Notes: generated by a model not told the origin, from the letters alone. Shown: positions 34,106 to 47,085, counted from the first letter of the stretch. The stretch is DNA of 64,000 bases from Candidatus Omnitrophota bacterium (GCA_041663425.1 JBAYMS010000001.1:8884-72883); one strand, 5' to 3'. Numbers and translations: made by a program.

Positions 34106-35341
34106 ATGCCATTTATCGCCGACTTCCATATACACTCAAAATACTCACGCGCGACGGCAAAAGATATGGATCTGGCCTCGCTGGCAAAATGGGCGAAGAT
34201 AAAAGGCGTTGCAATGCTGGGCACCGGCGATTTTACCCACCCTTCGTGGTTTTCGGAACTTAAAAATAAATTAAAAGAAACAGATGCACCGGGCGTTTAT
34301 GAATACGAAGGCATATTATTCATACTGACGGCTGAAGTTTCAAATATATATTTTAAGGCAGGCAGGACCAGGAAAGTACACAATATAATATTTGCCCCAT
34401 CGCTTAATGCGGCTGAGGAAATAACTTCCGCAGTATCGGAATACGGCGAACTTTCCAGCGACGGCAGGCCGATCCTGAGTGTAGAATGCGACAGGATGGT
34501 CAGGCTCCTTACCAGGATAGACCCGAAGATTTTCTTTGTCCCCGCTCATGCGTGGACGCCGCACTTCAGTGTGTTCGGTTCGAATTCCGGATTTGACCTG
34601 CCCGAAGAGTGTTACGAAGACCAGACGGACAAAATATTTTCGATAGAGACCGGGTTGTCGAGCGATCCGGCCATGAACTGGCGCTGGTCCAGGCTCGACA
34701 GGTTTTGCATGACGTCCAACTCTGATGCGCATTCTCCGTCGAAAATAGGGCGCGAGGCGAATGTATTTAAAGATAAAATAAATTACACTGAGCTCATTGA
34801 TATACTTAAGAAAAAAGATAAGGCGCGGTTCCTTTACACGATAGAATTTTTTCCTGAAGAAGGAAAATACCACTGGGACGGGCACAGGGACTGCAAGGCA
34901 AGGTTTCCGCCGCGGGAAGCGATGAAGTTAAATAATATTTGCCCTGTCTGCGGCAAGAAGGTTACAATAGGTGTTATGCACAGGCTCGAAGGCCTGGCAG
35001 ACAGAAGCGAAGGATATGCCGATGCGGCGAGCCCTTCTTATAAAAGATTGGTGCCGCTGGCGGAGATCATAGGAAGTGCTTTTGGTGTAGGTACGGAATC
35101 CCTGAAGGTAGAAAGGGAATATTTCCGGTTAATTAAAAATTTCGGAACAGAATTTAATATGCTCCTGTATATGAACGAAAAGGAGCTTCGCGAAAGTCTC
35201 CCGGAGAGGATCGCCAGAGGAATTATAAACGTCCGCAGCGGCGATATCGAAATAAATCCGGGCTACGATGGAGAATACGGGAAAGTAACGGTTTTCAAAG
35301 AAGGCGACACGGCTCAGGATAAGCAGATGAGCTTCTTATAG
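34106..35341 (+). CDS. PHP-domain protein with a C-terminal CPVCG zinc finger (EndoQ-like / TIGR00375-type)
   Basis: The N-terminus is MPFIADFHIHSKYSRATAKDM...LGTGDFTHP (PHP motif I), and it carries NICPVCGKK. It is embedded between pyrC and pyrK. Confidence 0.5.
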   Translation: MPFIADFHIHSKYSRATAKDMDLASLAKWAKIKGVAMLGTGDFTHPSWFSELKNKLKETDAPGVYEYEGILFILTAEVSNIYFKAGRTRKVHNIIFAPSLNAAEEITSAVSEYGELSSDGRPILSVECDRMVRLLTRIDPKIFFVPAHAWTPHFSVFGSNSGFDLPEECYEDQTDKIFSIETGLSSDPAMNWRWSRLDRFCMTSNSDAHSPSKIGREANVFKDKINYTELIDILKKKDKARFLYTIEFFPEEGKYHWDGHRDCKARFPPREAMKLNNICPVCGKKVTIGVMHRLEGLADRSEGYADAASPSYKRLVPLAEIIGSAFGVGTESLKVEREYFRLIKNFGTEFNMLLYMNEKELRESLPERIARGIINVRSGDIEINPGYDGEYGKVTVFKEGDTAQDKQMSFL

Positions 35342-37840: not shown

Positions 37841-38406
37841 ACGAGAAAGAAGTTTTGGATGTATTTAATAAAAAGAATGCGTTGTTAACAGGCCATTTCA
37901 AATTATCGAGCGGCCTTCACAGTAAAAATTATCTGCAATGCGCCCTGATATTGCAGTATCCGGACATCGCGGAAGAGCTTTCGAAAGAGATAGCGAAAAG
38001 AGTTTCAAAAGAAAATATAGATGTGGTTGTAGGACCAGCTCTGGGCGGGGTAACATTTGCTTATGAGATCGCGAGAGCACTTAAAGTGCGCGGGCTATTT
38101 ACGGAACGACAGGAAGGTGCGATGGTGCTGCGCCGCGGTTTTACTATATCGCCGGGTGAGAAAGTTCTTGTGGCAGAAGACGTTATAACAACGGGCGGTT
38201 CTACTAAAGAAGTCATCGAAGTTGTAAAAAAGCTGGGCGGTATCGTGGTCGGAGTAGCGAGCATAATAGACAGAAGCTCAGAGCCTGTGGACTTCGGCGT
38301 GCCGTTTACGGCTCTTGCCAGGATAAAGGTTGAGACTTTCAAAGAAGAAGATTGTCCTCTCTGTAAGGCAAAAACCCCGATAACAAAGCCCGGCTCGAGA
38401 AAATAA
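37837..38406 (+). CDS. pyrE: Orotate phosphoribosyltransferase
   Basis: It has the PRTase motif VLVAEDVITTGGS. Confidence 0.9.
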   Translation: MNEKEVLDVFNKKNALLTGHFKLSSGLHSKNYLQCALILQYPDIAEELSKEIAKRVSKENIDVVVGPALGGVTFAYEIARALKVRGLFTERQEGAMVLRRGFTISPGEKVLVAEDVITTGGSTKEVIEVVKKLGGIVVGVASIIDRSSEPVDFGVPFTALARIKVETFKEEDCPLCKAKTPITKPGSRK

Positions 38407-38466
38407 GCATAAATTCTAAATTATTGCGTCCGGACGGGCGGTTATGGTATTATATTTTCCACTTTA

Positions 38467-38541
38467 GGGCAAGTAGCTCAATGGCGGAGCAATCGGTTTA
38501 CATCCGATAGGTTACAGGTTCGACCCCTGTCTTGCCCACCA
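38467..38541 (+). tRNA. tRNA-Val (anticodon TAC)
   Basis: The sequence is GGGCAAGTAGCTCAATGGCGGAGCAATCGGTTTACATCCGATAGGTTACAGGTTCGACCCCTGTCTTGCCCACCA. Confidence 0.8.
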
Positions 38542-38616
38542 CTTCTCTGAATAACCCAAGCCATGCAGTCCCGAGGAGATGTGGTTTGACTGATGCGACG
38601 AGGGACACTTAACCCT

Positions 38617-38859
38617 ATGAGCAAGTGGACTGTTTATATTCTTAAATGTAATGACGCTTCTTTATATACCGGCATTACGACCGATCTTGAAAAACGGGTA
38701 AAAAAGCACAATGAAGGCCGTGCTGCGAAGTACACGAGAGCAAAAAGGCCTGTTTCAGTGGTTTATACTGAAGGCGCTGTTAATTCATCCTCAGCTAAAA
38801 AGAGAGAAGCCGAGATAAAAAAATTATCTCGACAAGCTAAGGTAGAGCTGATAAAATAA
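38617..38859 (+). CDS. GIY-YIG nuclease family protein (UPF0213-like)
   Basis: It reads WTVYILKCNDASLYTGITTDLEKRVKKHNEG. The likely start is MSKW at 38617. It lies between two tRNAs. Confidence 0.7.
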   Translation: MSKWTVYILKCNDASLYTGITTDLEKRVKKHNEGRAAKYTRAKRPVSVVYTEGAVNSSSAKKREAEIKKLSRQAKVELIK

Positions 38860-38873
38860 GCTTCCAGATTTCC

Positions 38874-38950
38874 GGGGACGTAGTTCAGTTGGTTAGAACG
38901 TCAGATTGTCGATCTGAAGGTCGCGGGTTCGACCCCCGTCGTCCCCGCCA
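38874..38950 (+). tRNA. tRNA-Asp (anticodon GTC)
   Basis: The sequence is GGGGACGTAGTTCAGTTGGTTAGAACGTCAGATTGTCGATCTGAAGGTCGCGGGTTCGACCCCCGTCGTCCCCGCCA. Confidence 0.85.
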
Positions 38951-38985
38951 TATAGAAACAGTAACTGGTTTAATACCAGATGATT

Positions 38986-39030
38986 AGCCGTAACAAGTTG
39001 TAAATTCAACTGGTTACGGCTATTTTATTT
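38986..39030 (+). terminator. Intrinsic terminator after tRNA-Asp
   Basis: A perfect 9-bp stem AGCCGTAAC / GTTACGGCT with a 18-nt loop is followed by ATTTTATTT. Confidence 0.55.
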
Positions 39031-39104
39031 ATCTTGCGTGTTTTGGAAATTAGCGCTATTCTTGGAAGTGATGGCACAAAAATGGCACAGTCATAGGGCT
39101 CCGA

Positions 39105-39599
39105 ATGGCGAATAATATTGATGTTTCAAAACTTCCGCTAAGCAAGATATTGATTTTGTTTGGCGACTTAATGGATGAGCTGAAGAAAAGAGGCGTTGTT
39201 AGAACGCGTAATAATCCGGTAGCTGACTATGCCGAATGGCTAACGGTAAGAGTCTTTAGTCTTGGCATCCAAACAAGCTCTAACAAAGGCTTTGATGCCA
39301 TTGATAAAAAAGGAATTCGATACCAAATAAAAGGCCGTAGGCTCGATGCTTCAAACCCATCCCGGCAATTGGGGGTTATTCGCGATCTTGATAAAAAGGG
39401 ATTCGATTTTCTTATCGCTATCATATTTAACAAAGATTTTACTATTCACGATGCCTATAAAATTCCGCACGAGCTCATAGGCGAATACGCTCGTTATAGT
39501 AAACATCAAAATGGATATATATTACACCTTAAAGGAAAAATTCTTCTGGCAAAAGGCGTTGAGAATATTACCGGAGCATTAAGCAAAGTTTCGGCATGA
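39105..39599 (+). CDS. Hypothetical small protein, possibly PD-(D/E)xK nuclease-like, 8 bp upstream of the PHP-ATPase gene
   Basis: It is 164 aa. Candidate catalytic motifs are GFDAID ... YQIKG (D...(E/Q)xK). I recognise no family for it, and the motif assignment is tentative. Confidence 0.35.
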   Translation: MANNIDVSKLPLSKILILFGDLMDELKKRGVVRTRNNPVADYAEWLTVRVFSLGIQTSSNKGFDAIDKKGIRYQIKGRRLDASNPSRQLGVIRDLDKKGFDFLIAIIFNKDFTIHDAYKIPHELIGEYARYSKHQNGYILHLKGKILLAKGVENITGALSKVSA

Positions 39600-39606
39600 G
39601 GAGATT

Positions 39607-42477
39607 ATGAACTATCCACGAGGGTCGGAATGGAGAAAATGGGACTTACATTTACACACACCGTCTTCTTATGATTACGATGACAAGAGCGTCACAGATG
39701 AGCAATTGATTAAAACCTTAAAAGAAAACGAAATTACCGTTGTAGCTATAACGGATCATCATTTTATAGATGTTGAAAAGATAAAGAAACTACAAGAATT
39801 AGCAAAAGACGAAATTACAATATTCCCGGGGATTGAGCTTCGAGCAGAGCTGGGAGGTAGCGAATCCATCCATTTTATAGGAATATTCCCAGAGGATTCT
39901 GATGTAAATGATATTTGGACAAAATTACAGGGGCAGTTAGAATTAACGCCAGCGGATGTAAAGAAAAAAGGTAATGATAAGATTTATTGCCATTTGAATA
40001 AGGCCGCCGAGCTTATTCATCAGTTGGGAGGCATTATAACTATTCATGCTGGCTCGAAAAGTAACTCGGTTGAAAAAATCACTAATGCGCTTCCATATAA
40101 AGAAGCGCTTAAAGAAGACATTGTGAAATCTATCAATGTCTATGAAATCGGGAATTCAGCCGATGTGGAAGGATACAGAAGCAATGTTTTTCCGAACATA
40201 GGGATTAAAATTCCTTTGGTAATTTGTTCTGACAACCACGATATAAAAAAGTATGTGTTAAAAGAGAATTGTTGGATAAAAGCAGATCCAACATTTACCG
40301 GGTTAAAGCAGATTATATTAGAGCCGGAGGATAGGGTATATATTGGCAAAGCTCCAACGAGGAGGAAAAACCTCGCCAGCGTAATCGACAAGATTGAGAT
40401 TAGTAATTCTAACGGGTGGTTTGAGGAATCCCCTATTGTTTTAAACGAAGACTTGGTCACCATAATAGGAGAAAAAGGTGCCGGTAAGACCGCGCTTGCC
40501 GATTTTATAGCTCTGGCGGGCGGGGATTTTGGGCTTCAAAAAAGCGATGCTAGCTCTTTTGTATTCAAAGCTCTAACCCCTACCAAACAAATCGAGAAGA
40601 CCATTGAAAATTGTCAAGTAACTATCAAATGGAAAGAGGGCAATCCCGACCAGATAACTATAAACAAAGAGCTGGTTGATTATAAACCTACGAAGAAAGT
40701 AAAATATTTATCTCAAAGTTTTATTGAGGAAAAATGTCGCCCAGAACACGCTGATGAATTGAGAAAAGAAATCGAGAATATCGTTTTTCAATATATACCA
40801 ACATCCGATAGGCTTGGGCAAACAACATTTAACGATTTAAAACGTTTAATGACGCGGGGTATTGAAGTAGAAAAAAGTAACTGCAGACAGCTTTTATTCG
40901 ACCTCAATGGTGAAATTTCTATTCTAAGAGACGAGATAGATAATCTCGAAGTACAAAAGTCAACTAAGAAGAAAACTGAAGATGAAATAACTCAGTTAAA
41001 TGAACAGAAACCAAAACCTGCTGATGCCGAGGAAAAAGCCATCGAAGATAAGCTGGCTATTTTATATACCAAGAAAAGTGAGATTAACGAAAAAGTTGCA
41101 GAATGCAAGTTGCAATTAAGCACCATAGAATCTATAAAAACAAAGCTGCTAGCTCTAAGTCAATACGTTGAAAAAGAATTGATTAGCATTAAGACGGACC
41201 TTGATTCAATAGCTTTAGGCAGTATTTACAACAAGCTAACATTTTCAATAAATCCAGAATTTCATACGAAGCTTGATGAAGCTAAGAATAAGCTGACGAA
41301 ACAGATTAAAGATTTTGAAGGAGCGCCGGAAAAAGTATCGTCCCTCACCGAAGATGAGAAAAAACTAGAGCTGATAACGACTGATTTTGTCAATGGGCTC
41401 ACACTTTCTCGTTTAGATGTAATTATAGAATGGCTAGAAACAAAATCGAGCATTGCCTATGATGCAAGAAAAGTTATTAAGGATTTCGAAGAGAAAATAG
41501 AGAAAAATAAGAAAGCAGTAGCATCTTTAGAAAAAAGCATCGCCGAGGTAGAGAAAACAAAAAAACCTACTCTTGCGAAGAAAATCGAGGAAAGAAATAG
41601 TGCCTATAAAAGTTATTTCACTTTGCTCCAAAAAGAAAAAAGTGTATTTGAAAGCCTGAGCGCACCTATTAAAACAAAAATTGATTCAGAGAATGTTGGT
41701 GATAAGCAGATAGGTTACTCAGCAAGAATTGAATTTGATGTTAATGGATTTTATGAAAAAGCATGTGAAATAATAAATTTCAAAGCAGCTGGTCATTATC
41801 ATCAAGATGGCCAACTGTTATTTAAAGATATCAAAGCCATAGCAGAAAAGATTGAGCTCGCAGAAGATGCCGATGTTTGCGCTTGTCTTGTAGACCGGTT
41901 CATTCAAACATTCGAAAAAGATGATGGTAGCGATGTTGATATTAAAACTCAACTGAAAAAAGGTAAAAAACAAATTGATTTTGATGCATGGCTTTTTGGT
42001 ATTTCATTCTTCAGCGTGACATATAGCATAAAATACCAAGATACTTATATTGAATTGCTATCTCCTGGAAAAAAAGGGATAGTGTTGTTACTAATGTATC
42101 TCACGTTAGATGCTGAGAGTGGCATACCGTTGATTATAGACCAACCAGAAGAAAATCTAGACAACAAATCCGTATATGCGCATCTAATAGAATACTTCCG
42201 CCAAGCCAAGAAGCGGCGGCAAATTATCGTTGTAACACACAATCCGAATTTAGTATTAAATACAGATGCCGAACAAGTGCTTGTTGCTGATTTTCAAGTC
42301 GTACCACCTGCGGGGCAAGCAAGAATAAGATATATAAGCGGGTCTATAGAAAATTCGTTTATTAACGAGTCTCTCAAAGACCCTCTCAGAAGACAGGGTA
42401 TTCGCGAGCATGGTGCCGAGATATTGGAGGGCGGTAAAAAGGCCTTTATTCAGCGAAAAGATAAGTACGAATACTAA
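39607..42477 (+). CDS. 956-aa fusion of an N-terminal PHP phosphoesterase domain with an SMC/Rad50/SbcC-like ABC ATPase that has a long coiled-coil insert (Ppl-like candidate defense protein)
   Basis: The PHP motifs are WDLHLHTPSS, AITDHH, ITIHAG and CSDNHD. The Walker A is GEKGAGKT (about aa 290). Roughly 500 aa of K/E-rich coiled coil follow. The ABC signature-like motif is LSPGKKG, the Walker B is LIIDQPEENLD and the H-loop is VVTHN. Confidence 0.7.
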   Translation: MNYPRGSEWRKWDLHLHTPSSYDYDDKSVTDEQLIKTLKENEITVVAITDHHFIDVEKIKKLQELAKDEITIFPGIELRAELGGSESIHFIGIFPEDSDVNDIWTKLQGQLELTPADVKKKGNDKIYCHLNKAAELIHQLGGIITIHAGSKSNSVEKITNALPYKEALKEDIVKSINVYEIGNSADVEGYRSNVFPNIGIKIPLVICSDNHDIKKYVLKENCWIKADPTFTGLKQIILEPEDRVYIGKAPTRRKNLASVIDKIEISNSNGWFEESPIVLNEDLVTIIGEKGAGKTALADFIALAGGDFGLQKSDASSFVFKALTPTKQIEKTIENCQVTIKWKEGNPDQITINKELVDYKPTKKVKYLSQSFIEEKCRPEHADELRKEIENIVFQYIPTSDRLGQTTFNDLKRLMTRGIEVEKSNCRQLLFDLNGEISILRDEIDNLEVQKSTKKKTEDEITQLNEQKPKPADAEEKAIEDKLAILYTKKSEINEKVAECKLQLSTIESIKTKLLALSQYVEKELISIKTDLDSIALGSIYNKLTFSINPEFHTKLDEAKNKLTKQIKDFEGAPEKVSSLTEDEKKLELITTDFVNGLTLSRLDVIIEWLETKSSIAYDARKVIKDFEEKIEKNKKAVASLEKSIAEVEKTKKPTLAKKIEERNSAYKSYFTLLQKEKSVFESLSAPIKTKIDSENVGDKQIGYSARIEFDVNGFYEKACEIINFKAAGHYHQDGQLLFKDIKAIAEKIELAEDADVCACLVDRFIQTFEKDDGSDVDIKTQLKKGKKQIDFDAWLFGISFFSVTYSIKYQDTYIELLSPGKKGIVLLLMYLTLDAESGIPLIIDQPEENLDNKSVYAHLIEYFRQAKKRRQIIVVTHNPNLVLNTDAEQVLVADFQVVPPAGQARIRYISGSIENSFINESLKDPLRRQGIREHGAEILEGGKKAFIQRKDKYEY

Positions 42478-42655
42478 GTTTAATAATCAATTGCTGAGAA
42501 TAAATATAAACAAGAACTGATTAATCGCTGGTCTAAGCTTTATGGTAAACAGATAACCGAAGAAGAATATCGACAGATTTGTGATAATTTAAGCGGTTAC
42601 ATTAAACTTTTGTATGAGTGGGATATGAAAGATAAAACGCAAAAAGGAGAGCACA

Positions 42656-42880
42656 ATGCCAAGGATAGCAAGTAATGTTTGCCCAGCGTGTCATAATAAG
42701 TTTCCTGCACACAAAGGTAACACGAAAACTTTTAGACAACTTACGCCGGCGGAGAGAAGTAGGTCTATTAGAATGATGGCTATCAATTTAAAGAAGGCTA
42801 TAAATGCTGACTTGCCATCGACCCGTATCAGACGGCTTTTTTGGGTTATAGATTATATGGCGCGGCAGGGAAGCAGGTAA
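42656..42880 (+). CDS. Small CPAC-motif protein, or a fragment of a degraded gene
   Basis: It is 74 aa (MPRIASNVCPACHNKF...). An upstream open frame at 42487-42663 has no ATG and changes frame into this ORF, which suggests decay. Confidence 0.3.
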   Translation: MPRIASNVCPACHNKFPAHKGNTKTFRQLTPAERSRSIRMMAINLKKAINADLPSTRIRRLFWVIDYMARQGSR

Positions 42881-42883
42881 CAA

Positions 42884-43026
42884 ATGATACATGAAAAAAA
42901 CGTATTTAACGATATCTTCGCTGATTTGATTTGCCATTCCCAGTTTGATGGAGGGCATAATCCTTTAGATTATTTGCACTATATGGACAAAATGGAACAG
43001 GCTAGAAAAAATAATAATGAAGAAGT
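42884..43026 (+). pseudogene. ORF whose 3' end is truncated by the IS insertion
   Basis: The ATG at 42884 opens MIHEKNVFNDIFADLICHSQFDGGHNPLDYLHYMDKMEQARKNNNE, and the reading frame continues into the IS inverted repeat. Confidence 0.3.
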
Positions 43027-43037
43027 GACCTTACCCC

Positions 43038-43751
43038 TTACACTGCACAGCTCGTAAGGTGAATTTCTGGTGTTTTTTGTTGTTCTTTCCAGGCCTTGGT
43101 GAACTCTGCCGGAGTTAGACCGTCTAACGATCCGTGAGGCCTGAATGTATTATACTCCACTCTCCAGTCTTCGATAATCTTTTTTGCTTCTTCAATCGTA
43201 ACGAAGTAATGTTGATTGAGGCATTCGTGCCGTAGCCTACCATTGAACGACTCGATAAAAGCGTTCTGTATGGGCTTGCCGGGCTTTATAAAGTCAAGCC
43301 TAGCACCGTTATCATACGCCCATTTATCAAGGGCTCGTCCCGCGAACTCAGGACCGTTATCGGTCGTGATTACTTGCGGACATCCTCTTGTAAGAACTAG
43401 CCAATCAAGCACTCTCGTTACTCTGTTACCGTCTATAGACGTATCGACTTCGATAGAGAGACATTCTTTAGTAAAGATATCAAGCACGTTCAGCGTCTTT
43501 ATCTTCCTGCCGTTCCATAACCCGTCTGACATAAAGTCCATCGCCCAGCGTTCATTGGGCTTCGAGGCTTCCGGTAGCTCTAGTCTGATCATTGAGGCTC
43601 TCTTGTGACGTTTGCGAAGCTTTAGCGCGAGGCTATTCTCCTTATAGATGCGCTCGGTGCGCTTATGGTTTACTACAAGTCCCTCACGATGCAATATATC
43701 GTGAAGCATCGGAAGTCCCCAGCTCTTATGCGTAGCTATAAGCTCCTTCAT
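43038..43751 (-). CDS. IS3-family transposase OrfB (DDE integrase catalytic domain); the N-terminal part is upstream in the -1 frame, overlapping orfA
   Basis: It has an rve-type core: ITTDNGPEFAG...LDFIKPGKPIQNAFIESFNGRLRHECLN. Confidence 0.85.
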   Translation of the reverse strand: MKELIATHKSWGLPMLHDILHREGLVVNHKRTERIYKENSLALKLRKRHKRASMIRLELPEASKPNERWAMDFMSDGLWNGRKIKTLNVLDIFTKECLSIEVDTSIDGNRVTRVLDWLVLTRGCPQVITTDNGPEFAGRALDKWAYDNGARLDFIKPGKPIQNAFIESFNGRLRHECLNQHYFVTIEEAKKIIEDWRVEYNTFRPHGSLDGLTPAEFTKAWKEQQKTPEIHLTSCAV

Positions 43752-43888
43752 ACGGTCTAATATCTTCGCATCGTTATTAGCTCTACTGGTCTTGTAATAA
43801 TAGCTTGATCTATTAAGCTCTACAAGCCTGCATGATCTAGCCTTCGACAGCCCAAAGCGCTCTTTTAACCGAGCTACAGCAAGTCTCT

Positions 43889-44167
43889 TTACTTTGGGCT
43901 TAGGAAGTTTTTTGAGTTGAGCGCCTTTAACGCCTGGTTATCGAGTGTTAAGTCCGCGACTATGTTCTTTAGTCTGCGGTTCTCATCCTCGAGCGCCCTT
44001 AGTTTCTTCGCGTCTGATACTTCCATGCCGCCATACTTCGATATCCACTTATAGATCGTGCCTTCACAGACATTAGCTTCTCTTGAGATATCTGAAACCG
44101 CCACTCCTTGCTCATGTCTCTTTAAAAAAGCTATTATCTGTTCCTCTGTAAATCTTTTGCGTGACAT
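43889..44167 (-). CDS. IS3-family transposase OrfA (HTH)
   Basis: It reads MSRKRFTEEQIIAFLKRHEQGVAVSDISREANVCEGTIYKW and has a leucine-zipper-like C-terminus. Confidence 0.85.
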   Translation of the reverse strand: MSRKRFTEEQIIAFLKRHEQGVAVSDISREANVCEGTIYKWISKYGGMEVSDAKKLRALEDENRRLKNIVADLTLDNQALKALNSKNFLSPK

Positions 44168-44517
44168 ATCCCGAGCCTCCTTTACGTAGCTATTGGTAGC
44201 TACGGTTATACACTAGGAAACTCGCCTTGTAAACTGTCTAGTTTAGCGGGGTAGGGTCACTTTCGTCAGTTTAAATTATGGCGAGCCCGCAGATTTTTAC
44301 ATTGTCCCAAGCAAAGTCGTTGCAACCTTCATAAAAAAACATAATCGAAAGTGGCTTAAGACCCCCGGCAGAAAAGGCCAGAAACACAACCAAACCTCAA
44401 TGAGACAATTTAGAGACGACGAACAGCGATATCGTAACGCATATTACCTCATGAAGTTGTAATATTTTGTAAATTTATATAATAGTTTAAGGGACGGTTC
44501 TGACGAAAATCTGACCG

Positions 44518-45084
44518 GTGACATACCACCGACAGGTTCCTATGATACTCAAAGACTATGACATATCGTTAGTATATAGGCTACTTGAGCCGGGCCCGGT
44601 TGTGATGGTAACAACATCGCGGGATGGCAGGCCCAATGTTATGACTATGTCCTGGCATACCATGATGGAATTTACCCCGCCTCTTATAGGATGTGTTATA
44701 AGTGACAGGAATTACACATTCGATGCGCTCAAAGCCACAAAAGAATGCGTTATTGCGATACCTTCGGTAAAGCTTGCAGGCAAAGTGGTGCAGGTGGGCA
44801 GTGTTTCAGGCCGGAACACGGATAAATTTAAAACAATAGGACTTACTCCGAAACCCGCCTTTATAGTGAAAGCGCCTATCATAGCCGAATGTTTTGCAAA
44901 CATAGAATGCAGGGTGGTAGATACCTCGCTGGTAAATAAATATAATTTCTTCATAATGGAAGCGGTGAAAGCTTCCATAGATCACGCGCAAAAAAATCCG
45001 AAAACCCTCCATCATCATGGTAAAGGAACGTTCGTTTCCGATGGCGTAAAAATAAGGCGTAAATTTAACAGCCTTGAGCCATAG
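44518..45084 (+). CDS. Flavin reductase-like (FMN-binding split-barrel) protein
   Basis: It reads PVVMVTTSRDGRPNVMTMSWHTMMEFTPPLIGCVIS. Confidence 0.7.
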   Translation: MTYHRQVPMILKDYDISLVYRLLEPGPVVMVTTSRDGRPNVMTMSWHTMMEFTPPLIGCVISDRNYTFDALKATKECVIAIPSVKLAGKVVQVGSVSGRNTDKFKTIGLTPKPAFIVKAPIIAECFANIECRVVDTSLVNKYNFFIMEAVKASIDHAQKNPKTLHHHGKGTFVSDGVKIRRKFNSLEP

Positions 45085-45126
45085 AAAATAAAAATCGCAC
45101 TTATATTTGACACTTGCACATACATC

Positions 45127-47085
45127 ATGTATACTTCATCAAAAACCGAAAGGAAATTAATGTCAAATAAATCTATATTTGCGGCAGTAATAACAGTATT
45201 TGTTTTATTTATAACTTCCGTTTCTTTTGCAAGTCAAGCGTCAACCACTTCCACCAATCAAAGCGAGATCAAACCCTACTGGTTTTTAGATGCGCCTAAA
45301 GAATGGCCCGCCCAGGTAATGCCTGGTATGCGCGGCGGGACTGAGAAACTTAAAAGCTATATCGACAATCTCATCCCTGTTTTTGGCACAAAAGATATCA
45401 TACTATTTGCTGATTATAAATCTGTTATGGGAGCCAGAGGTTCAAACGAAGAGAATATAGGAATAGGGTTAAGAGATCTTCTCTTCGACGAAAAGCTTAT
45501 CCTGGGAGGCAATTTCTTCTATGATACCCGCTATACGGAAAACAAGATAAGGCATCATCAGCTGGCATTTGGTTTGGAGGGTTTGACGAAATGGGTAGAT
45601 GTAAGGTCTAATTTTTACTTTCCGATATCGGGTAGGCAGATGCTAAGCGGTGATACTACATATTTATTCGGCTCGAAAAGCCTGGATGTGCAGAACACAT
45701 ACGAAGAACCGTTAACCGGCATTGATTACGAAGCAGGTGTTCTTATACCATGTTTGTCTGATTACGTTGAGACAAGAGCATTTCTGGGAGGATATAACTA
45801 TTTTCCCGGCATAGGTAAAGGGCTTAACGGTATAAAGGCAAGGTTTGAAGTCCGTCCCATAAAGGCGCTTACGGTAAATGTTGAGATGAAAAGCGATAAT
45901 TACGGTGCGCCCCAATATTTTGTTGAAGGTTTTATGACAATCCCTCTCGATACGATGAACGTATTCAAAATAAAAAATCCATTTACCGAATTTGGAAAAT
46001 ACTTCTCCTATAAAAAGGGCATTAGGTCTTTAAGAGAACGTATGGTTGATAGAGTAGTGAGAGACATAGACGTAACCGCTAAAAGCACTCCTACGGTACG
46101 GTCAAAAGCTCATGATCTTACCTATGTAGACAACACATATTATAGCGGATACTCGAATGGTTCGCTGGATCGCCCGTATACGACTATAGCCGATGGTATA
46201 ACAAATGCCACGGGAGACCATTGGATTTACGTAAAAGGCACCGGCACTAATTATGCCGGCAATCTTAACCTCCCCTCAAACTACGTTCTTTGGGGTAGTG
46301 CTTATAATGGAGGCTTCCAGAATCTCGGCGTAAGCGGTGTTTATCCCGTCATAAGCGGCGGCACTCAATGCTTAACTATTAATAATAATAATACGGTTAT
46401 GGGGATGAAGATGCAGAGCGCCACGGACAACGGTATCAAATTTACCGCAGGGACCACATTAACCGGAACGATAAAACATAATATCTGTAATAGCAACGGC
46501 AACAACGGAATAGATCTGGACAGCAACACAGCTACGATCACAAGCTTCACCATCGACAGTAATACGCTCAATAGTAATACCAGTAATGGAATAAACTTTG
46601 GAGGCAATAGCGGGACGATGCGTAACGTTACTATTTCCAATAATATGATAGACAGCAACGGGGATGATGCAATAAGGATGTGGGCAAACTCAGGGACACT
46701 GACCGGTTTTCTCATCTCTAATAATACGTGCAGCAATGCCGGCCTTCACCATGGAATAGATATGGATGGCAATGGTGGCACTATGAGTAATTTTACGTTC
46801 TTGCGTAACGTCATAACAGGTAATAACCGGGACGGAATAATGATGAAGGGCGGGACTATAACCGGCATTAATTTTGGCGATGGCACAGCAGGCGGCTATA
46901 ACTCCATCTATAATAACAACCAAGCGGCTGGCAGCTATTACGATTTTGAAAACCAAACCGGAAACGCTGTCTACGCCCAGTATAACTGGTGGGGACAGGC
47001 TACCGGACCGGGCGCAGGGCAGATTTACAATAGTGCCACTAGCAGCACAAATTCTTCAAATTACCTATCCTCAAATCCAAACTAA
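45127..47085 (+). CDS. Inverse autotransporter (intimin/invasin-type beta-domain) with a parallel beta-helix repeat passenger
   Basis: It has a signal peptide. The beta-domain motifs YEEPLTGIDYEAG and PCLSDYVETRAFLGGYNYF resemble intimin YDERPANGFDIRFNG and PSYPALGAKLIYEQYYG. The C-terminus carries repeated NGIDLDSN / NGINFGGN / DGIMMKGG beta-helix turns. Confidence 0.55.
   Translation: MYTSSKTERKLMSNKSIFAAVITVFVLFITSVSFASQASTTSTNQSEIKPYWFLDAPKEWPAQVMPGMRGGTEKLKSYIDNLIPVFGTKDIILFADYKSVMGARGSNEENIGIGLRDLLFDEKLILGGNFFYDTRYTENKIRHHQLAFGLEGLTKWVDVRSNFYFPISGRQMLSGDTTYLFGSKSLDVQNTYEEPLTGIDYEAGVLIPCLSDYVETRAFLGGYNYFPGIGKGLNGIKARFEVRPIKALTVNVEMKSDNYGAPQYFVEGFMTIPLDTMNVFKIKNPFTEFGKYFSYKKGIRSLRERMVDRVVRDIDVTAKSTPTVRSKAHDLTYVDNTYYSGYSNGSLDRPYTTIADGITNATGDHWIYVKGTGTNYAGNLNLPSNYVLWGSAYNGGFQNLGVSGVYPVISGGTQCLTINNNNTVMGMKMQSATDNGIKFTAGTTLTGTIKHNICNSNGNNGIDLDSNTATITSFTIDSNTLNSNTSNGINFGGNSGTMRNVTISNNMIDSNGDDAIRMWANSGTLTGFLISNNTCSNAGLHHGIDMDGNGGTMSNFTFLRNVITGNNRDGIMMKGGTITGINFGDGTAGGYNSIYNNNQAAGSYYDFENQTGNAVYAQYNWWGQATGPGAGQIYNSATSSTNSSNYLSSNPN

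What the first reader, a model, noticed from the sequence alone, without database searches (positions are those of the whole stretch)
39607..42477. Single-chain PHP phosphoesterase fused to an SMC/Rad50-like ABC ATPase in a tRNA-Asp island: candidate anti-phage (Ppl-like) or DNA-end-processing module
The 956-aa ORF starts with a complete PHP domain (HxH, DHH, H and DNHD motif series). A Walker A motif (GEKGAGKT) follows. About 500 residues of K/E-rich predicted coiled coil come next. It ends with an ABC signature-like LSPGKKG, a Walker B LIIDQPEENLD and an H-loop VVTHN.

That is the head, coiled-coil, head layout of SbcC/Rad50, except that a PHP metallo-phosphoesterase is fused in cis where SbcCD/Mre11-Rad50 have a separate calcineurin-type nuclease. 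It sits next to an IS element in a block flanked by tRNA-Asp, within a genome-core neighbourhood, which is the classic defense-island context.

I recall a one-gene PHP plus ATPase anti-phage system called Ppl being reported. This protein may be a member or a distant variant. The tightly linked upstream small ORF is not part of that description and could make it a two-gene variant.
Basis: partly seen in the sequence, partly recalled or inferred. Interest (0 to 1): 0.85.

Follow-up and report, generated by a model that had tools for sequence, protein, structure and literature searches.

The report
Ppl-like PHP nuclease–ATPase defence gene
This 956-residue protein really is a PHP nuclease fused to a Rad50/SMC-like ATPase, but it belongs to an already named, very widespread family (TrlF) related to the known anti-phage protein Ppl, and the small gene in front of it is an ordinary, independent restriction enzyme.

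Summary
**Observation:** confirmed. ORF 39607-42477 encodes a PHP phosphoesterase fused to a split ABC/SMC-type ATPase. The catalytic core motifs are invariant across 26 homologs.

**Identity:**
- It is a full-length member of the NCBIfam "TrlF family AAA-like ATPase" (566 bits, cutoff 350).
- It fails the Ppl equivalog model (120 bits, cutoff 1000).
- It is still a full-length distant homolog of Ppl (hhalign 99.9%). A genuine E. coli Ppl also passes the TrlF model.

**Family:** about 1,700 clusters at 50% identity, spread across many phyla and abundant on conjugative plasmids. It usually occurs as a lone gene among R-M, Abi and toxin-antitoxin genes.

**Upstream ORF:** a BisI-family 5mC-dependent restriction endonuclease (Eco15I, 1e-42). 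It is translationally close-coupled here, but the pair never recurs (0 of 86 and 0 of 61 loci).

**Insert:** the two genes form the lowest-GC stretch of the window, next to a single tRNA-Asp and an IS3 element.

**Most likely function:** an autonomous, ATP-gated, DNA-end-directed exonuclease for defence. This is inferred from Ppl and has not been tested.

**Verdict:** new member of a known kind, of modest interest.

The parts
38874..38950 (+). tRNA-Asp (GTC). It is the only tRNA-Asp in the window and marks the left edge of the low-GC insert.
   Evidence: ARAGORN. No second copy of its 3' end exists in the window.
38985..39031 (+). Hairpin with 16-nt arms (94% complementary) followed by a T-run. 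It is probably the terminator of the tRNA transcript, and the insert probably starts after it.
   Evidence: Inverted repeat I6; sequence read directly.
39105..39599 (+). 164-aa BisI-family (PD-QxK, Mrr-like) modification-dependent restriction endonuclease. It is predicted to cut 5mC/5hmC-modified GCNGC-type sites.
   Evidence: phmmer against the PDB: Eco15I 8q5m 1.2e-42, NhoI 8q5n 1.4e-19. PADLOC mREase_II 3.1e-60, full length. Pfam DUF6998. E44, D64/D67 and Q74-x-K76 are conserved in the Eco15I alignment, and these are the family's active-site features as described in PMC11347163.
39600..39606 (+). 7-nt intergenic spacer containing GGAG. The BisI-like gene and trlF are translationally close-coupled and co-oriented.
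   Evidence: Sequence ...gcaTGAGGAGATTATGaac.
39607..40356 (+). TrlF residues 1-250: PHP metallo-phosphoesterase (nuclease) module. Candidate metal ligands are H15, H17, D50/H51/H52, E77, H89, H147, D209 and H211.
40357..40806 (+). TrlF residues 251-400: N-terminal half of the ABC/SMC-type ATPase head. Walker A is G288-EKGAGKT-295 and the Q-loop residue is Q370.
   Evidence: Pfam SMC_N spans 260-887. Invariant G288, G291, G293, K294 and Q370. The A1 profile matches the Rad50 N-terminus at 1e-5.
40807..41706 (+). TrlF residues 401-700: antiparallel coiled-coil arm. The outbound helices end at 534 and the return helix is 618-694. The apex (535-617) has no Cys, so there is no zinc hook.
41707..42477 (+). 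TrlF residues 701-956 plus the stop codon: C-terminal half of the ATPase head. It carries the signature LSPGKKG (818-824), Walker B LIIDQPE (842-848), the D-loop NLDN and the H-loop H878. A family-specific tail motif, LEGG-x2-AF-x2-R (940-950), follows.
   Evidence: Motif positions. Invariant columns. BLASTP to E. coli Ppl over 815-953, 30% identity, which includes the tail motif.
42656..43057 (+). Two small ORFs (74 and 57 aa) of unknown function between trlF and the IS element. There is no evidence that they belong to the system.
   Evidence: ORF list. The only hit is a weak treble-clef zinc-finger match for the 74-aa ORF. No PADLOC or NCBIfam hits.
43038..44167 (-). IS3-family transposase genes: orfA at 43889-44167 and orfB at 43038-43751. 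They mark the right side of the insert.
   Evidence: Pfam HTH_Tnp_1 1.4e-21; rve 2.3e-19, rve_3 1.9e-26, HTH_21.

Best explanation
The gene encodes a member of the TrlF family. These are single polypeptides that carry an N-terminal PHP metal-dependent nuclease fused to a Rad50/SMC-type ABC ATPase, whose two head halves are separated by a coiled-coil arm of about 300 residues. Ppl, a validated single-gene anti-phage protein, has the same architecture and is a full-length homolog.

The most likely mechanism is borrowed from Ppl and from the Rad50/SMC class. All of these steps are inferred:
1. Two protomers engage through ATP sandwiched between Walker A/B of one head and the signature motif of the other.
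2. The nucleotide-bound state holds the PHP exonuclease inactive.
3. During infection, or on entry of a mobile element, free DNA ends appear and nucleotide levels change, which releases the PHP domain.
4. The PHP domain then degrades DNA exonucleolytically from the ends. This destroys the invader, and possibly the host chromosome as well, giving abortive infection.

In this Omnitrophota genome the gene arrived by horizontal transfer in a small low-GC insert beside tRNA-Asp. It came with an unrelated, self-sufficient BisI-family 5mC-dependent restriction endonuclease and is probably co-transcribed with it. I read these as two stacked defence genes, not one obligate two-gene system.
For: **Shown**
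- The ORF and its motifs are present.
- The core PHP ligands and all ABC motifs are invariant across 26 homologs.
- It is a full-length TrlF-family member: 566 bits against a cutoff of 350.
- Pfam SMC_N and AAA_21 score above their cutoffs.

**Homology to Ppl**
- PADLOC Ppl 1.9e-31.
- BLASTP aligns both ends.
- hhalign gives 99.9% probability over 816 columns.
- A genuine E. coli Ppl also scores 477 bits, full length, on the TrlF model.

**What is known about Ppl**
- It is a single-gene anti-phage system with an ATPase and a PHP domain (PMC11482910).
- It is an ssDNA 3'-5' exonuclease. NTPs bound to the PHP and NTPase domains inhibit it, and it is activated by nucleotide depletion together with 3'-OH ends (review PMC12904381).

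**Context**
- The block has the lowest GC of 607 windows of the same size, with GC3 of 0.34 against 0.44-0.53 in the flanks.
- An IS3 element is adjacent and a restriction enzyme is adjacent.
- Homologs occur in many phyla and form about 1,695 clusters at E<=1e-30.
- 1,105 plasmid records match, of which 819 are conjugative and 219 are near full length.
- Neighbours of homologs are enriched for R-M parts, Mrr, Abi_2, toxin-antitoxin genes and integrases.
- 49 of 75 homolog loci have no tightly coupled neighbour.
- The BisI pairing is absent from 86 and from 61 loci.
Against: - No TrlF-clade protein has been tested against phage in any paper I could find. No paper in the library contains both 'TrlF' and 'phage'.
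- In the one genetic study of a trlF gene (Photorhabdus TRL operon), every temperature-tolerant mutation mapped to trlG and none to trlF, so even there TrlF has no demonstrated role (PMC7554251).
- The protein fails the curated Ppl threshold, and its middle 500 residues do not align to Ppl by BLAST. Transferring the mechanism is therefore an extrapolation.
- The PHP fold also occurs in RNases (RNase AM) and phosphatases, so the substrate could be RNA or a nucleotide.
- Here the gene is translationally close-coupled to the restriction gene, which weakens the claim that it acts alone in this genome.
- My neighbour statistics rest on a crude ORF caller and have no matched control.
Confidence: 0.6

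Rival explanations
1. This is a functional two-step 'cut-and-chew' module. The co-transcribed restriction endonuclease (BisI-like here; Type I or Type III enzymes in other genomes) makes the first double-strand breaks in foreign DNA. TrlF recognises those ends and resects them, which prevents repair and amplifies restriction. On this reading TrlF is a generic end-processing partner that can be plugged onto any cutter.
For: - The spacing is 7 nt with a GGAG between the BisI-like stop codon and the trlF start.
- Both genes share the same atypical composition (GC3 0.345 and 0.335).
- In other genomes TrlF genes are embedded, same strand and with gaps of no more than about 25 nt, inside R-M operons of different types. 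Examples are hsdS-TrlF-hsdR (L020), hsdS-TrlF (L026), mod-TrlF-ResIII (L004) and ResIII-TrlF (L064). At least 15 of 81 loci have R-M parts within +-3 ORFs.
- Ppl is reported to need 3'-OH ends made by another nuclease, namely phage homing endonucleases.
- BisI-family enzymes cut within the site and leave single-base 5' overhangs.
Against: - The specific pair never recurs: 0 of 86 TrlF loci and 0 of 61 BisI-like loci.
- About two-thirds of TrlF loci have no coupled neighbour at all.
- On plasmids TrlF is usually a lone gene.
- BisI-family enzymes are active on their own in vitro (PMC4926085 and PMC11347163).
- Clustering with R-M is a general property of defence genes, and R-M operons are known insertion hotspots (general knowledge), so adjacency does not discriminate between the readings.
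Confidence: 0.15
2. The gene is a stress-triggered growth-arrest, addiction or inter-element competition module and is not primarily anti-phage. This would resemble the Photorhabdus temperature-restriction locus, or it could be a plasmid-borne function that attacks competing plasmids or incoming DNA during conjugation.
For: - The family takes its name from the TRL operon, whose induction at 36 C arrests growth (PMC7554251).
- 819 of 1,105 matching plasmid records are conjugative, and near-full-length matches in phage records are absent.
- The ATPase resembles JetC and MukB. JetC is the ATPase of the Wadjet system, which acts against small plasmids.
Against: - In Photorhabdus the phenotype maps to trlG, not trlF.
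- No TrlG-like gene (AlbA_2 / HATPase_c_4) lies beside this gene, and those families were not among the 25 most frequent families in 149 neighbours of homologs.
- The closest characterised homolog, Ppl, protects against phages T7 and Bas63.
Confidence: 0.15
3. The gene is a housekeeping DNA double-strand-break or hairpin-processing enzyme. It would be a one-chain analogue of SbcCD / Mre11-Rad50, with PHP replacing the calcineurin-type nuclease.
For: - A nuclease is present in cis.
Against: - There is no zinc hook or hinge: no CxxC motif, and the apex has no Cys.
- The distribution is patchy and borne on mobile elements, with no conserved housekeeping synteny.
- The composition is foreign to this genome.
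- The PHP and ATPase modules show recombination between lineages, which is typical of accessory or defence genes.
Confidence: 0.05

Closest known systems
TrlF (Photorhabdus laumondii temperature-restriction locus trlR-trlF-trlG; NCBIfam NF045780 'TrlF family AAA-like ATPase')
   Same: The window protein matches the HMM over its full length and above the curated cutoff (566 against 350). It has the same PHP + ABC-ATPase single-chain architecture. PGAP applies this name to homologs on plasmids.
   Different: There is no trlG (AlbA_2 + HATPase_c_4) or trlR partner here; the neighbour is a BisI-family restriction enzyme. TrlF itself has no demonstrated function. The NCBIfam model is broad enough to capture Ppl as well, so membership describes the architecture and not a tested function.
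Ppl (single-gene anti-phage system of E. coli; NCBIfam NF042955, PADLOC PDLC02208)
   Same: It has the same domain order and is homologous along its full length (hhalign 99.9%, 816 columns). The PHP ligands, Walker A, signature, Walker B, H-loop and the C-terminal EGG-x2-AF-x2-R tail are shared. Both occur on mobile elements among defence genes.
   Different: Identity is only 25-30% at the two ends, and the middle of about 500 residues cannot be aligned by BLAST. It scores 120 bits against the Ppl cutoff of 1000. The best-scoring stretch covers only positions 4-307 of the 894-position PADLOC Ppl model. Ppl is 891 aa and this protein is 956 aa. No activity data exist for this clade.
SbcCD / Mre11-Rad50 and SMC-family ATPases (including the defence-related JetC of Wadjet and LmuB of Lamassu)
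   Different: The nuclease is a PHP domain fused in cis, not a separate calcineurin-type (Mre11/SbcD) or Toprim (JetD) subunit. The arm is much shorter, at about 75-120 residues per strand. There is no zinc hook or hinge. No kleisin-like or accessory subunit genes lie nearby.
Endonuclease Q and RNase AM (PHP-fold nucleases)
   Different: Neither is fused to an ATPase. EndoQ is a lesion-specific endonuclease with a zinc finger, and RNase AM acts on RNA. Sequence identity is only 20-24%.
BisI family of modification-dependent restriction endonucleases (BisI, Eco15I, NhoI), for the upstream ORF
   Same: It is 164 aa and aligns to Eco15I over residues 14-155 at 1.2e-42, with the alpha1 Glu and the PD-QxK residues conserved. 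It matches the PADLOC mREase_II model over its full length at 3e-60.
   Different: Its specificity and modification dependence are untested. I found no other case of a BisI-family gene coupled to a TrlF gene.

Membership tests
TrlF family AAA-like ATPase (NCBIfam NF045780) | Full-length match to the family HMM above the curated cutoff (350 bits) | tested here: met
   566.4 bits, E 1.9e-169, residues 5-955 on profile positions 1-944 of 944. Homologs P0002 and P0098 and the plasmid genes score 550-656 bits.
TrlF family AAA-like ATPase (NCBIfam NF045780) | N-terminal PHP domain with conserved metal-binding His/Asp/Glu residues | tested here: met
   H15, H17, D50, E77 and D209 are invariant and H211 is present in at least 90%. 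Pfam PHP 2e-5. The fold matches EndoQ, RNase AM and the Pol III PHP domain.
TrlF family AAA-like ATPase (NCBIfam NF045780) | Operon with trlG (AlbA_2 + HATPase_c_4) and trlR, as in the founding Photorhabdus locus | tested here: not met
   The neighbours are a BisI-like REase upstream and two small unknown ORFs plus an IS3 element downstream. This feature describes the TRL operon and not the protein family. AlbA_2 was not among the 25 most frequent families in 149 neighbours of homologs.
Ppl anti-phage protein (NCBIfam NF042955 / PADLOC Ppl) | Score above the curated equivalog cutoff (1000 bits) and full-length coverage of the Ppl HMM | tested here: not met
   120.4 bits, with the best stretch covering residues 6-305. 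PADLOC Ppl gives 107 bits, with the best stretch on profile positions 4-307 of 894. A genuine Ppl scores 1330 bits.
Ppl anti-phage protein (NCBIfam NF042955 / PADLOC Ppl) | Single polypeptide with a PHP domain followed by an NTPase, homologous along its length | tested here: met
   hhalign of A1 against E. coli Ppl: probability 99.9%, E 3.8e-32, 816 aligned columns covering Ppl residues 2-887. Ppl itself passes the TrlF model at 477 bits.
Ppl anti-phage protein (NCBIfam NF042955 / PADLOC Ppl) | Acts as an autonomous one-gene system | tested here: inconclusive
   Here it is coupled to a restriction gene by a 7-nt spacer. However, the partner is not conserved, and 49 of 75 homolog loci have no coupled neighbour.
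Ppl anti-phage protein (NCBIfam NF042955 / PADLOC Ppl) | Anti-phage protection; NTP-inhibited 3'-5' ssDNA exonuclease activity triggered by DNA ends | not testable with these tools
   These properties are known for E. coli Ppl only, from the literature. Testing them here needs phage assays and biochemistry.
SbcC / Rad50 / SMC ATPases | ABC head halves separated by an antiparallel coiled coil, with Walker A, Q-loop, signature, Walker B, D-loop and H-loop | tested here: met
SbcC / Rad50 / SMC ATPases | Dimerisation element at the coiled-coil apex (Rad50/SbcC CxxC zinc hook or SMC hinge) | tested here: not met
   There is no CxxC motif anywhere in the protein and no Cys in apex residues 535-617. 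The apex is about 80 residues of short helices.
SbcC / Rad50 / SMC ATPases | A separate Mre11/SbcD-type nuclease or kleisin partner, with conserved housekeeping synteny | tested here: not met
   No such gene is adjacent. The contexts of homologs are variable and tied to mobile elements.
BisI family modification-dependent REases (upstream ORF) | Sequence homology to characterised members, and a PD-QxK (Mrr-like) active site plus a Glu in helix alpha1 | tested here: met
   Eco15I 1.2e-42 and NhoI 1.4e-19. E44 (DYAEWL), D64/D67 (FDAID) and Q74-I-K76 are aligned to Eco15I. The family definition comes from PMC11347163.
BisI family modification-dependent REases (upstream ORF) | Cleavage of GCNGC only when it carries several 5mC/5hmC residues | not testable with these tools
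   This needs an enzyme assay. No C5-methyltransferase motif IV was found in the 64-kb window, which is compatible with the host tolerating such an enzyme but is only weak evidence.

The most novel reading that the evidence does not exclude
TrlF-family proteins are generic, pluggable 'end-resection boosters' of restriction. On this reading they are recruited next to, or inside, operons of unrelated DNA cutters. Here the cutter is a BisI-type Type IV enzyme, and in other genomes it is a Type I or Type III R-M system. TrlF would use the DNA ends those cutters create as its activation signal and substrate. Restriction and TrlF together would then form a modular two-step immunity, and the observed swapping of PHP and ATPase modules between lineages would reflect tuning of this coupling.
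Probability: 0.13. Interest if true: 0.6.

Novelty: new member of a known kind. Interest (0 to 1): 0.3.

Why it matters
The specific gene is an ordinary new member of a catalogued family, so it changes little on its own.

Three points about the family are worth keeping in view:
- **The family is large and clinically visible.** It has about 1,700 clusters at 50% identity. It is present on hundreds of conjugative Klebsiella and E. coli plasmids, reaches candidate-phyla bacteria (Omnitrophota and CPR lineages), and is annotated on a plasmid of the haloarchaeon Halapricum.
- **Only one clade has been tested.** Ppl is the only clade with experimental support. If the wider TrlF family works the same way, a large number of genes now annotated as 'AAA-like ATPase' are DNA-end-sensing immune nucleases.
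- **The link to restriction enzymes gives a cheap test.** TrlF is repeatedly embedded in R-M operons and is close-coupled to a Type IV enzyme here. This makes it straightforward to ask experimentally whether restriction and end resection cooperate.

Tried and rejected
1. **Integration signature at tRNA-Asp.** There is no direct repeat of the tRNA 3' end within 38400-45200 or anywhere in the window, and no integrase gene. I therefore could not define att sites, and the right boundary is only approximate (IS3).
2. **Empty-site comparison.** An exact-protein look-up of the flanking PyrE returned only a 1-kb contig, which was uninformative.
3. **Conservation of the BisI-like + TrlF pair.** I tested it from both sides and found none.
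4. **A universal partner gene.** BLAST clustering and Pfam/PADLOC scans of 149 immediate neighbours found none. The most frequent family (ResIII) occurs in only 7 of 149.
5. **A solved structure of the family.** phmmer found nothing, and the profile search found only a Rad50 N-terminal fragment and RNase AM. No Ppl structure surfaced.
6. **The primary mechanistic paper on Ppl.** It is not in the searchable library, so I relied on a 2026 review. Gao et al. 2020 as the origin of Ppl is from my own memory.
7. **Any paper linking TrlF to phage.** There were zero hits. A search for a newly named PHP/SMC-like single-gene system found nothing relevant, and the PHP-containing 'Ophion' system is unrelated in architecture.
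8. **Promoter scan of the insert.** Sigma-70-like hits were no more frequent than in shuffled sequence (9 found against 11.8 expected) and none lay upstream of the BisI-like gene. The co-transcription claim therefore rests on spacing alone.
9. **Relatedness of the second PHP protein in the window.** It is an EndoQ homolog with no detectable pairwise similarity to the TrlF PHP domain.
10. **Phage-borne homologs.** Only 7 weak or partial matches turned up.


Full report
**1. The observation**

- HLH at residue 15
- DHH at 50
- DNHD at 209
- GEKGAGKT at 288
- LSPG at 818
- DQPE at 845
- THN at 877

These motifs are under selection and are not chance matches. I aligned 26 homologs sharing 33-66% identity with the window protein. 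The invariant columns include the PHP ligands H15, H17, D50, E77 and D209. They also include Walker A (G288, G291, G293, K294), the Q-loop Q370, the signature S819-P820-G821, Walker B D845-Q846-P847-E848, D852 of the D-loop, and the H-loop H878.

Pfam places SMC_N over residues 260-887 at 48.2 bits, above its gathering score of 40. AAA_21 also scores above its cutoff, and PHP scores 25.4 against 26.4, just below.

An AlphaFold2 model built on that alignment is confident (mean pLDDT 84.1, pTM 0.66). It shows three parts:
- an alpha/beta N-terminal domain
- an ATPase head made of two separated halves
- long helices at 417-534 (outbound) and 618-694 (return) joined by an apex of about 80 residues

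- cohesin and condensin heads, RecN, RecF, JetC and SbcC

Foldseek agrees.

Two details in the finding need correcting:
- The coiled-coil insert is about 300 residues, not about 500. Residues 700-810 are part of the C-terminal head lobe. The apex has no cysteine and the protein has no CxxC motif, so there is no Rad50-type zinc hook.
- There is one tRNA-Asp, upstream at 38874-38950. No remnant of it lies downstream, so the block is not 'flanked' by tRNA-Asp.

**2. What the protein is**

NCBIfam gives a full-length hit above the curated cutoff to NF045780, 'TrlF family AAA-like ATPase': 566 bits against 350, residues 5-955 on profile positions 1-944.

The name comes from the trlR-trlF-trlG 'temperature restriction locus' of Photorhabdus laumondii. 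[quoted passage not shown] No temperature-tolerant mutation ever mapped to it, and it has no assigned function (PMC7554251).

The Ppl models hit much more weakly. NCBIfam Ppl_antiphage scores 120 bits against a cutoff of 1000. For the PADLOC Ppl model (894 positions), the best-scoring stretch covers only positions 4-307. By the curated criterion this protein is not Ppl.

To see how the two families relate, I fetched a genuine ppl gene from an E. coli IncF plasmid:
- That Ppl scores 1330 bits on the Ppl model. It also scores 477 bits, full length, on the TrlF model, above that model's cutoff.
- BLASTP between the window protein and Ppl aligns only the two ends: residues 6-304 at 25% identity and 815-953 at 30%.
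- A profile comparison of my alignment with Ppl gives 99.9% probability (E 4e-32) over 816 columns spanning Ppl residues 2-887.

The accurate statement is this. TrlF and Ppl are one architectural family, Ppl is a specialised clade within it, and the window protein is a distant, full-length relative of Ppl from a different clade.

No member of the family has a solved structure in the PDB copy I searched.

**3. How common it is and where it lives**

- The protein is identical to a hypothetical protein of a Candidatus Omnitrophota MAG.
- A search of 1.84 billion representative proteins finds 1,695 clusters at E<=1e-30 and 4,329 at E<=1e-10.
They come from Planctomycetota, Desulfobacterota, Bacillota, Acidobacteriota, Nitrospirota, Verrucomicrobiota, Bacteroidota, Actinomycetota, Pseudomonadota, Cyanobacteria-related Melainabacteria and CPR lineages.
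- In PLSDB, 1,105 plasmid records match. Of these, 219 match over at least 80% of the length and 819 are conjugative. Most are Klebsiella or Escherichia plasmids, and PGAP already labels the listed genes 'TrlF family AAA-like ATPase'.
- A plasmid of the haloarchaeon Halapricum also carries a gene annotated with this name; only the N-terminal 305 residues were used as the query for that match.
- Phage records hold only seven partial matches.

**4. The upstream ORF**

The 164-aa ORF at 39105-39599 is not an unknown accessory subunit.
- It aligns to the crystallised restriction endonucleases Eco15I (E 1.2e-42, residues 14-155) and NhoI (1.4e-19).
- It matches a PADLOC 'Type II methyl-directed restriction enzyme' model over its full length at 3e-60.

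These enzymes form the BisI family. They are small dimeric PD-QxK (Mrr-like) nucleases that cut within GCNGC only when several cytosines are methylated or hydroxymethylated. They leave one-base 5' overhangs and work on their own in vitro (PMC11347163 and PMC4926085). The window ORF keeps the helix-alpha1 glutamate (E44 in DYAEWL), the aspartate region (FDAID) and Q74-x-K76.

**5. One system or two**

Locally, the two genes look like one transcription unit.
- The BisI-like TGA stop is followed by GGAG and then by the trlF ATG, with a spacer of 7 nt in all.
- A strong hairpin plus T-run just after tRNA-Asp probably ends the tRNA transcript.
- The two genes share an atypical composition: GC 0.39 and 0.37, and GC3 0.345 and 0.335, against 0.44-0.53 in the flanking pyrimidine-biosynthesis genes.
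- The 3.4-kb block is the lowest-GC stretch of that size in the whole window; 0 of 607 other positions are as low.

The pairing is not conserved.
- None of 86 loci carrying TrlF homologs has a BisI-like gene within 6-8 kb. This includes the four closest relatives I could place in context.
- None of 61 metagenomic loci carrying close BisI-like genes has a TrlF. Of those, 34 are at least 4 kb long.

No other partner is conserved either. Among 149 immediate neighbours of homologs, the most frequent Pfam families are:
- ResIII, 7
- DUF2130, 5
- DEAD, 5
- SWI2_SNF2, 4
- N6_N4_Mtase, 4
- Mrr_cat, 4
- Methylase_S, 3
- Phage_integrase, 3

In 49 of 75 loci there is no same-strand neighbour within 30 bp on either side. 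That count comes from a crude ORF caller.

On plasmids the gene stands alone among accessory or defence cargo:
- an Abi_2 protein and an HNH endonuclease in Enterobacter kobei
- an Abi_2 protein and a PLD-family protein in Yersinia ruckeri
- an Fst toxin in Staphylococcus hominis

My reading is that TrlF is an autonomous single-gene module, like Ppl (PMC11482910). In this genome it has been stacked with an independent Type IV/IIM restriction enzyme.

**6. A pattern that stops me dismissing coupling**

TrlF genes are repeatedly embedded inside restriction-modification operons of different types, on the same strand and with tiny gaps:
- hsdS-TrlF-hsdR (L020)
- hsdS-TrlF (L026)
- Type III-like mod-TrlF-ResIII helicase (L004)
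- ResIII-TrlF (L064)
- hsdMSR-TrlF in the closest Omnitrophota relative (L001)

At least 15 of 81 loci have R-M parts within three ORFs.

According to a 2026 review, Ppl needs 3'-OH ends made by another nuclease (phage homing endonucleases) as well as nucleotide depletion (PMC12904381). It is therefore conceivable that TrlF proteins exploit ends made by whichever cutter sits next to them.

I rate this idea low, at about 0.13, for two reasons. Clustering with R-M is a general property of defence genes, and I have no matched control.

**7. Most likely mechanism**

*Shown here:*
- a complete PHP metal site
- a complete ABC catalytic set in an SMC/Rad50-type head with a coiled-coil arm
- full-length homology to Ppl
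- foreign composition and a context tied to mobile elements

*Inferred:*
- ATP-dependent head-to-head dimerisation, which is general ABC/SMC knowledge
- recognition of DNA ends by the head and arm
- nucleotide-dependent gating of the PHP exonuclease, then exonucleolytic destruction of invading DNA once ends appear and nucleotide levels fall, by analogy with Ppl

The PHP module's best structural neighbours are nucleic-acid enzymes (EndoQ, RNase AM, Pol III PHP) and not small-molecule phosphatases. This favours a nuclease role but does not settle whether the substrate is DNA or RNA.

I put about 0.95 on the identity and architecture, about 0.6 on a defence role of this kind, and less on the specific gating details.

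**8. Rivals**

- A housekeeping SbcCD-like repair role is unlikely. There is no hook or hinge, no conserved synteny, a patchy and plasmid-borne distribution, and a foreign composition.
- A stress-arrest or inter-plasmid competition role stays open at about 0.15. The TRL operon phenotype and the heavy bias toward conjugative plasmids point that way.

**9. Novelty and verdict**

However, the family is already named, modelled and applied in routine annotation. Its best-studied clade has a published mechanism. The proposed 'two-gene variant' dissolves into two known kinds of defence gene that happen to be neighbours.

This is a new member of a known kind. What remains unknown is whether the non-Ppl bulk of the TrlF family defends at all, and whether its frequent embedding in restriction operons has a function. 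I set interest at 0.3.

**10. Side observations**

- The family shows clear module shuffling. The window protein's PHP module is 60-64% identical to homologs whose ATPase regions are only 14-43% identical. Its ATPase part is 69-83% identical to a homolog whose PHP module is only 36% identical.
- The window also holds a genuine Endonuclease Q homolog inside the pyrimidine-biosynthesis operon.

Noticed in passing
window 34106-35341 (+): This 411-aa ORF lies between pyrC and pyrK inside the pyrimidine-biosynthesis operon. It is an Endonuclease Q homolog (PfuEndoQ 5zb8, E 3.5e-55, residues 5-399), although Pfam sees only PHP_C. It shows no detectable pairwise similarity to the TrlF PHP module (BLASTP E 0.48). 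An enzyme that cuts at dU and hypoxanthine, linked to pyrimidine-synthesis genes in an Omnitrophota genome, is a curious arrangement.
   Followed up: partly
alignment A1 (window protein 1-250 against 251-956; homologs P0002, P0076, P0089, P0093, P0098, P0113, P0117): The TrlF family is mosaic at the domain level. The PHP module of the window protein is 60-64% identical to homologs whose ATPase regions are only 14-43% identical. Its ATPase part is 69-83% identical to P0002, whose PHP module is only 36% identical and belongs to a different subtype (about 60 extra residues, and TDY in place of DHH). This implies recombination near residue 250.
   Followed up: partly
L020, L026, L004, L064, L015, L001 (homolog loci): TrlF genes are embedded on the same strand, with gaps of -7 to about 25 nt, inside Type I (hsdS-TrlF-hsdR) and Type III-like (mod-TrlF-ResIII) R-M operons. 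At least 15 of 81 loci have R-M parts within +-3 ORFs.
   Followed up: partly
L010, L013, L015, L024, L078 (homolog loci): A DUF2130 protein (a coiled-coil protein of about 430 aa) is an immediate neighbour of TrlF in five unrelated genomes, with a best Pfam E-value of 3.8e-81. Its function is unknown.
   Followed up: no
window 42424-42456 (TrlF residues 940-950) and E. coli Ppl, L151:5022-7697: The C-terminal tail motif L-E-G-G-x2-A-F-x2-R, which lies beyond the ATPase head, is invariant in 26 TrlF homologs. E. coli Ppl also has it (MEGGEKAFRSR). It is a family signature with no known role.
   Followed up: no
window 38593-38859 (+): This 88-aa stand-alone GIY-YIG domain protein (Pfam 6.7e-20) is wedged between tRNA-Val(TAC) and tRNA-Asp(GTC). 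Its low GC3 (0.337) resembles that of the insert and not that of the pyr operon.
   Followed up: no
L148:9940-10974 (-) and L152:4906-5955 (+) (plasmids of Enterobacter kobei and Yersinia ruckeri): Abi_2 (AbiD/F-type) proteins lie next to TrlF on two unrelated plasmids. They are only 27% identical to each other and are oriented differently relative to TrlF.
   Followed up: partly
window 42656-43057 (+) and 43038-43751 (-): Two small ORFs (74 and 57 aa) of unknown function lie between trlF and the IS3 element. The 57-aa ORF overlaps the 3' end of IS3 orfB by 20 nt on the opposite strand. The stretch 42478-42655 has no ORF of 50 aa or more.
   Followed up: no
window 45127-47085 (+): This 652-aa protein has an inverse-autotransporter beta-domain (1.7e-12) followed by right-handed beta-helix repeats. 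It is probably a surface adhesin and lies just beyond the IS3 element.
   Followed up: no
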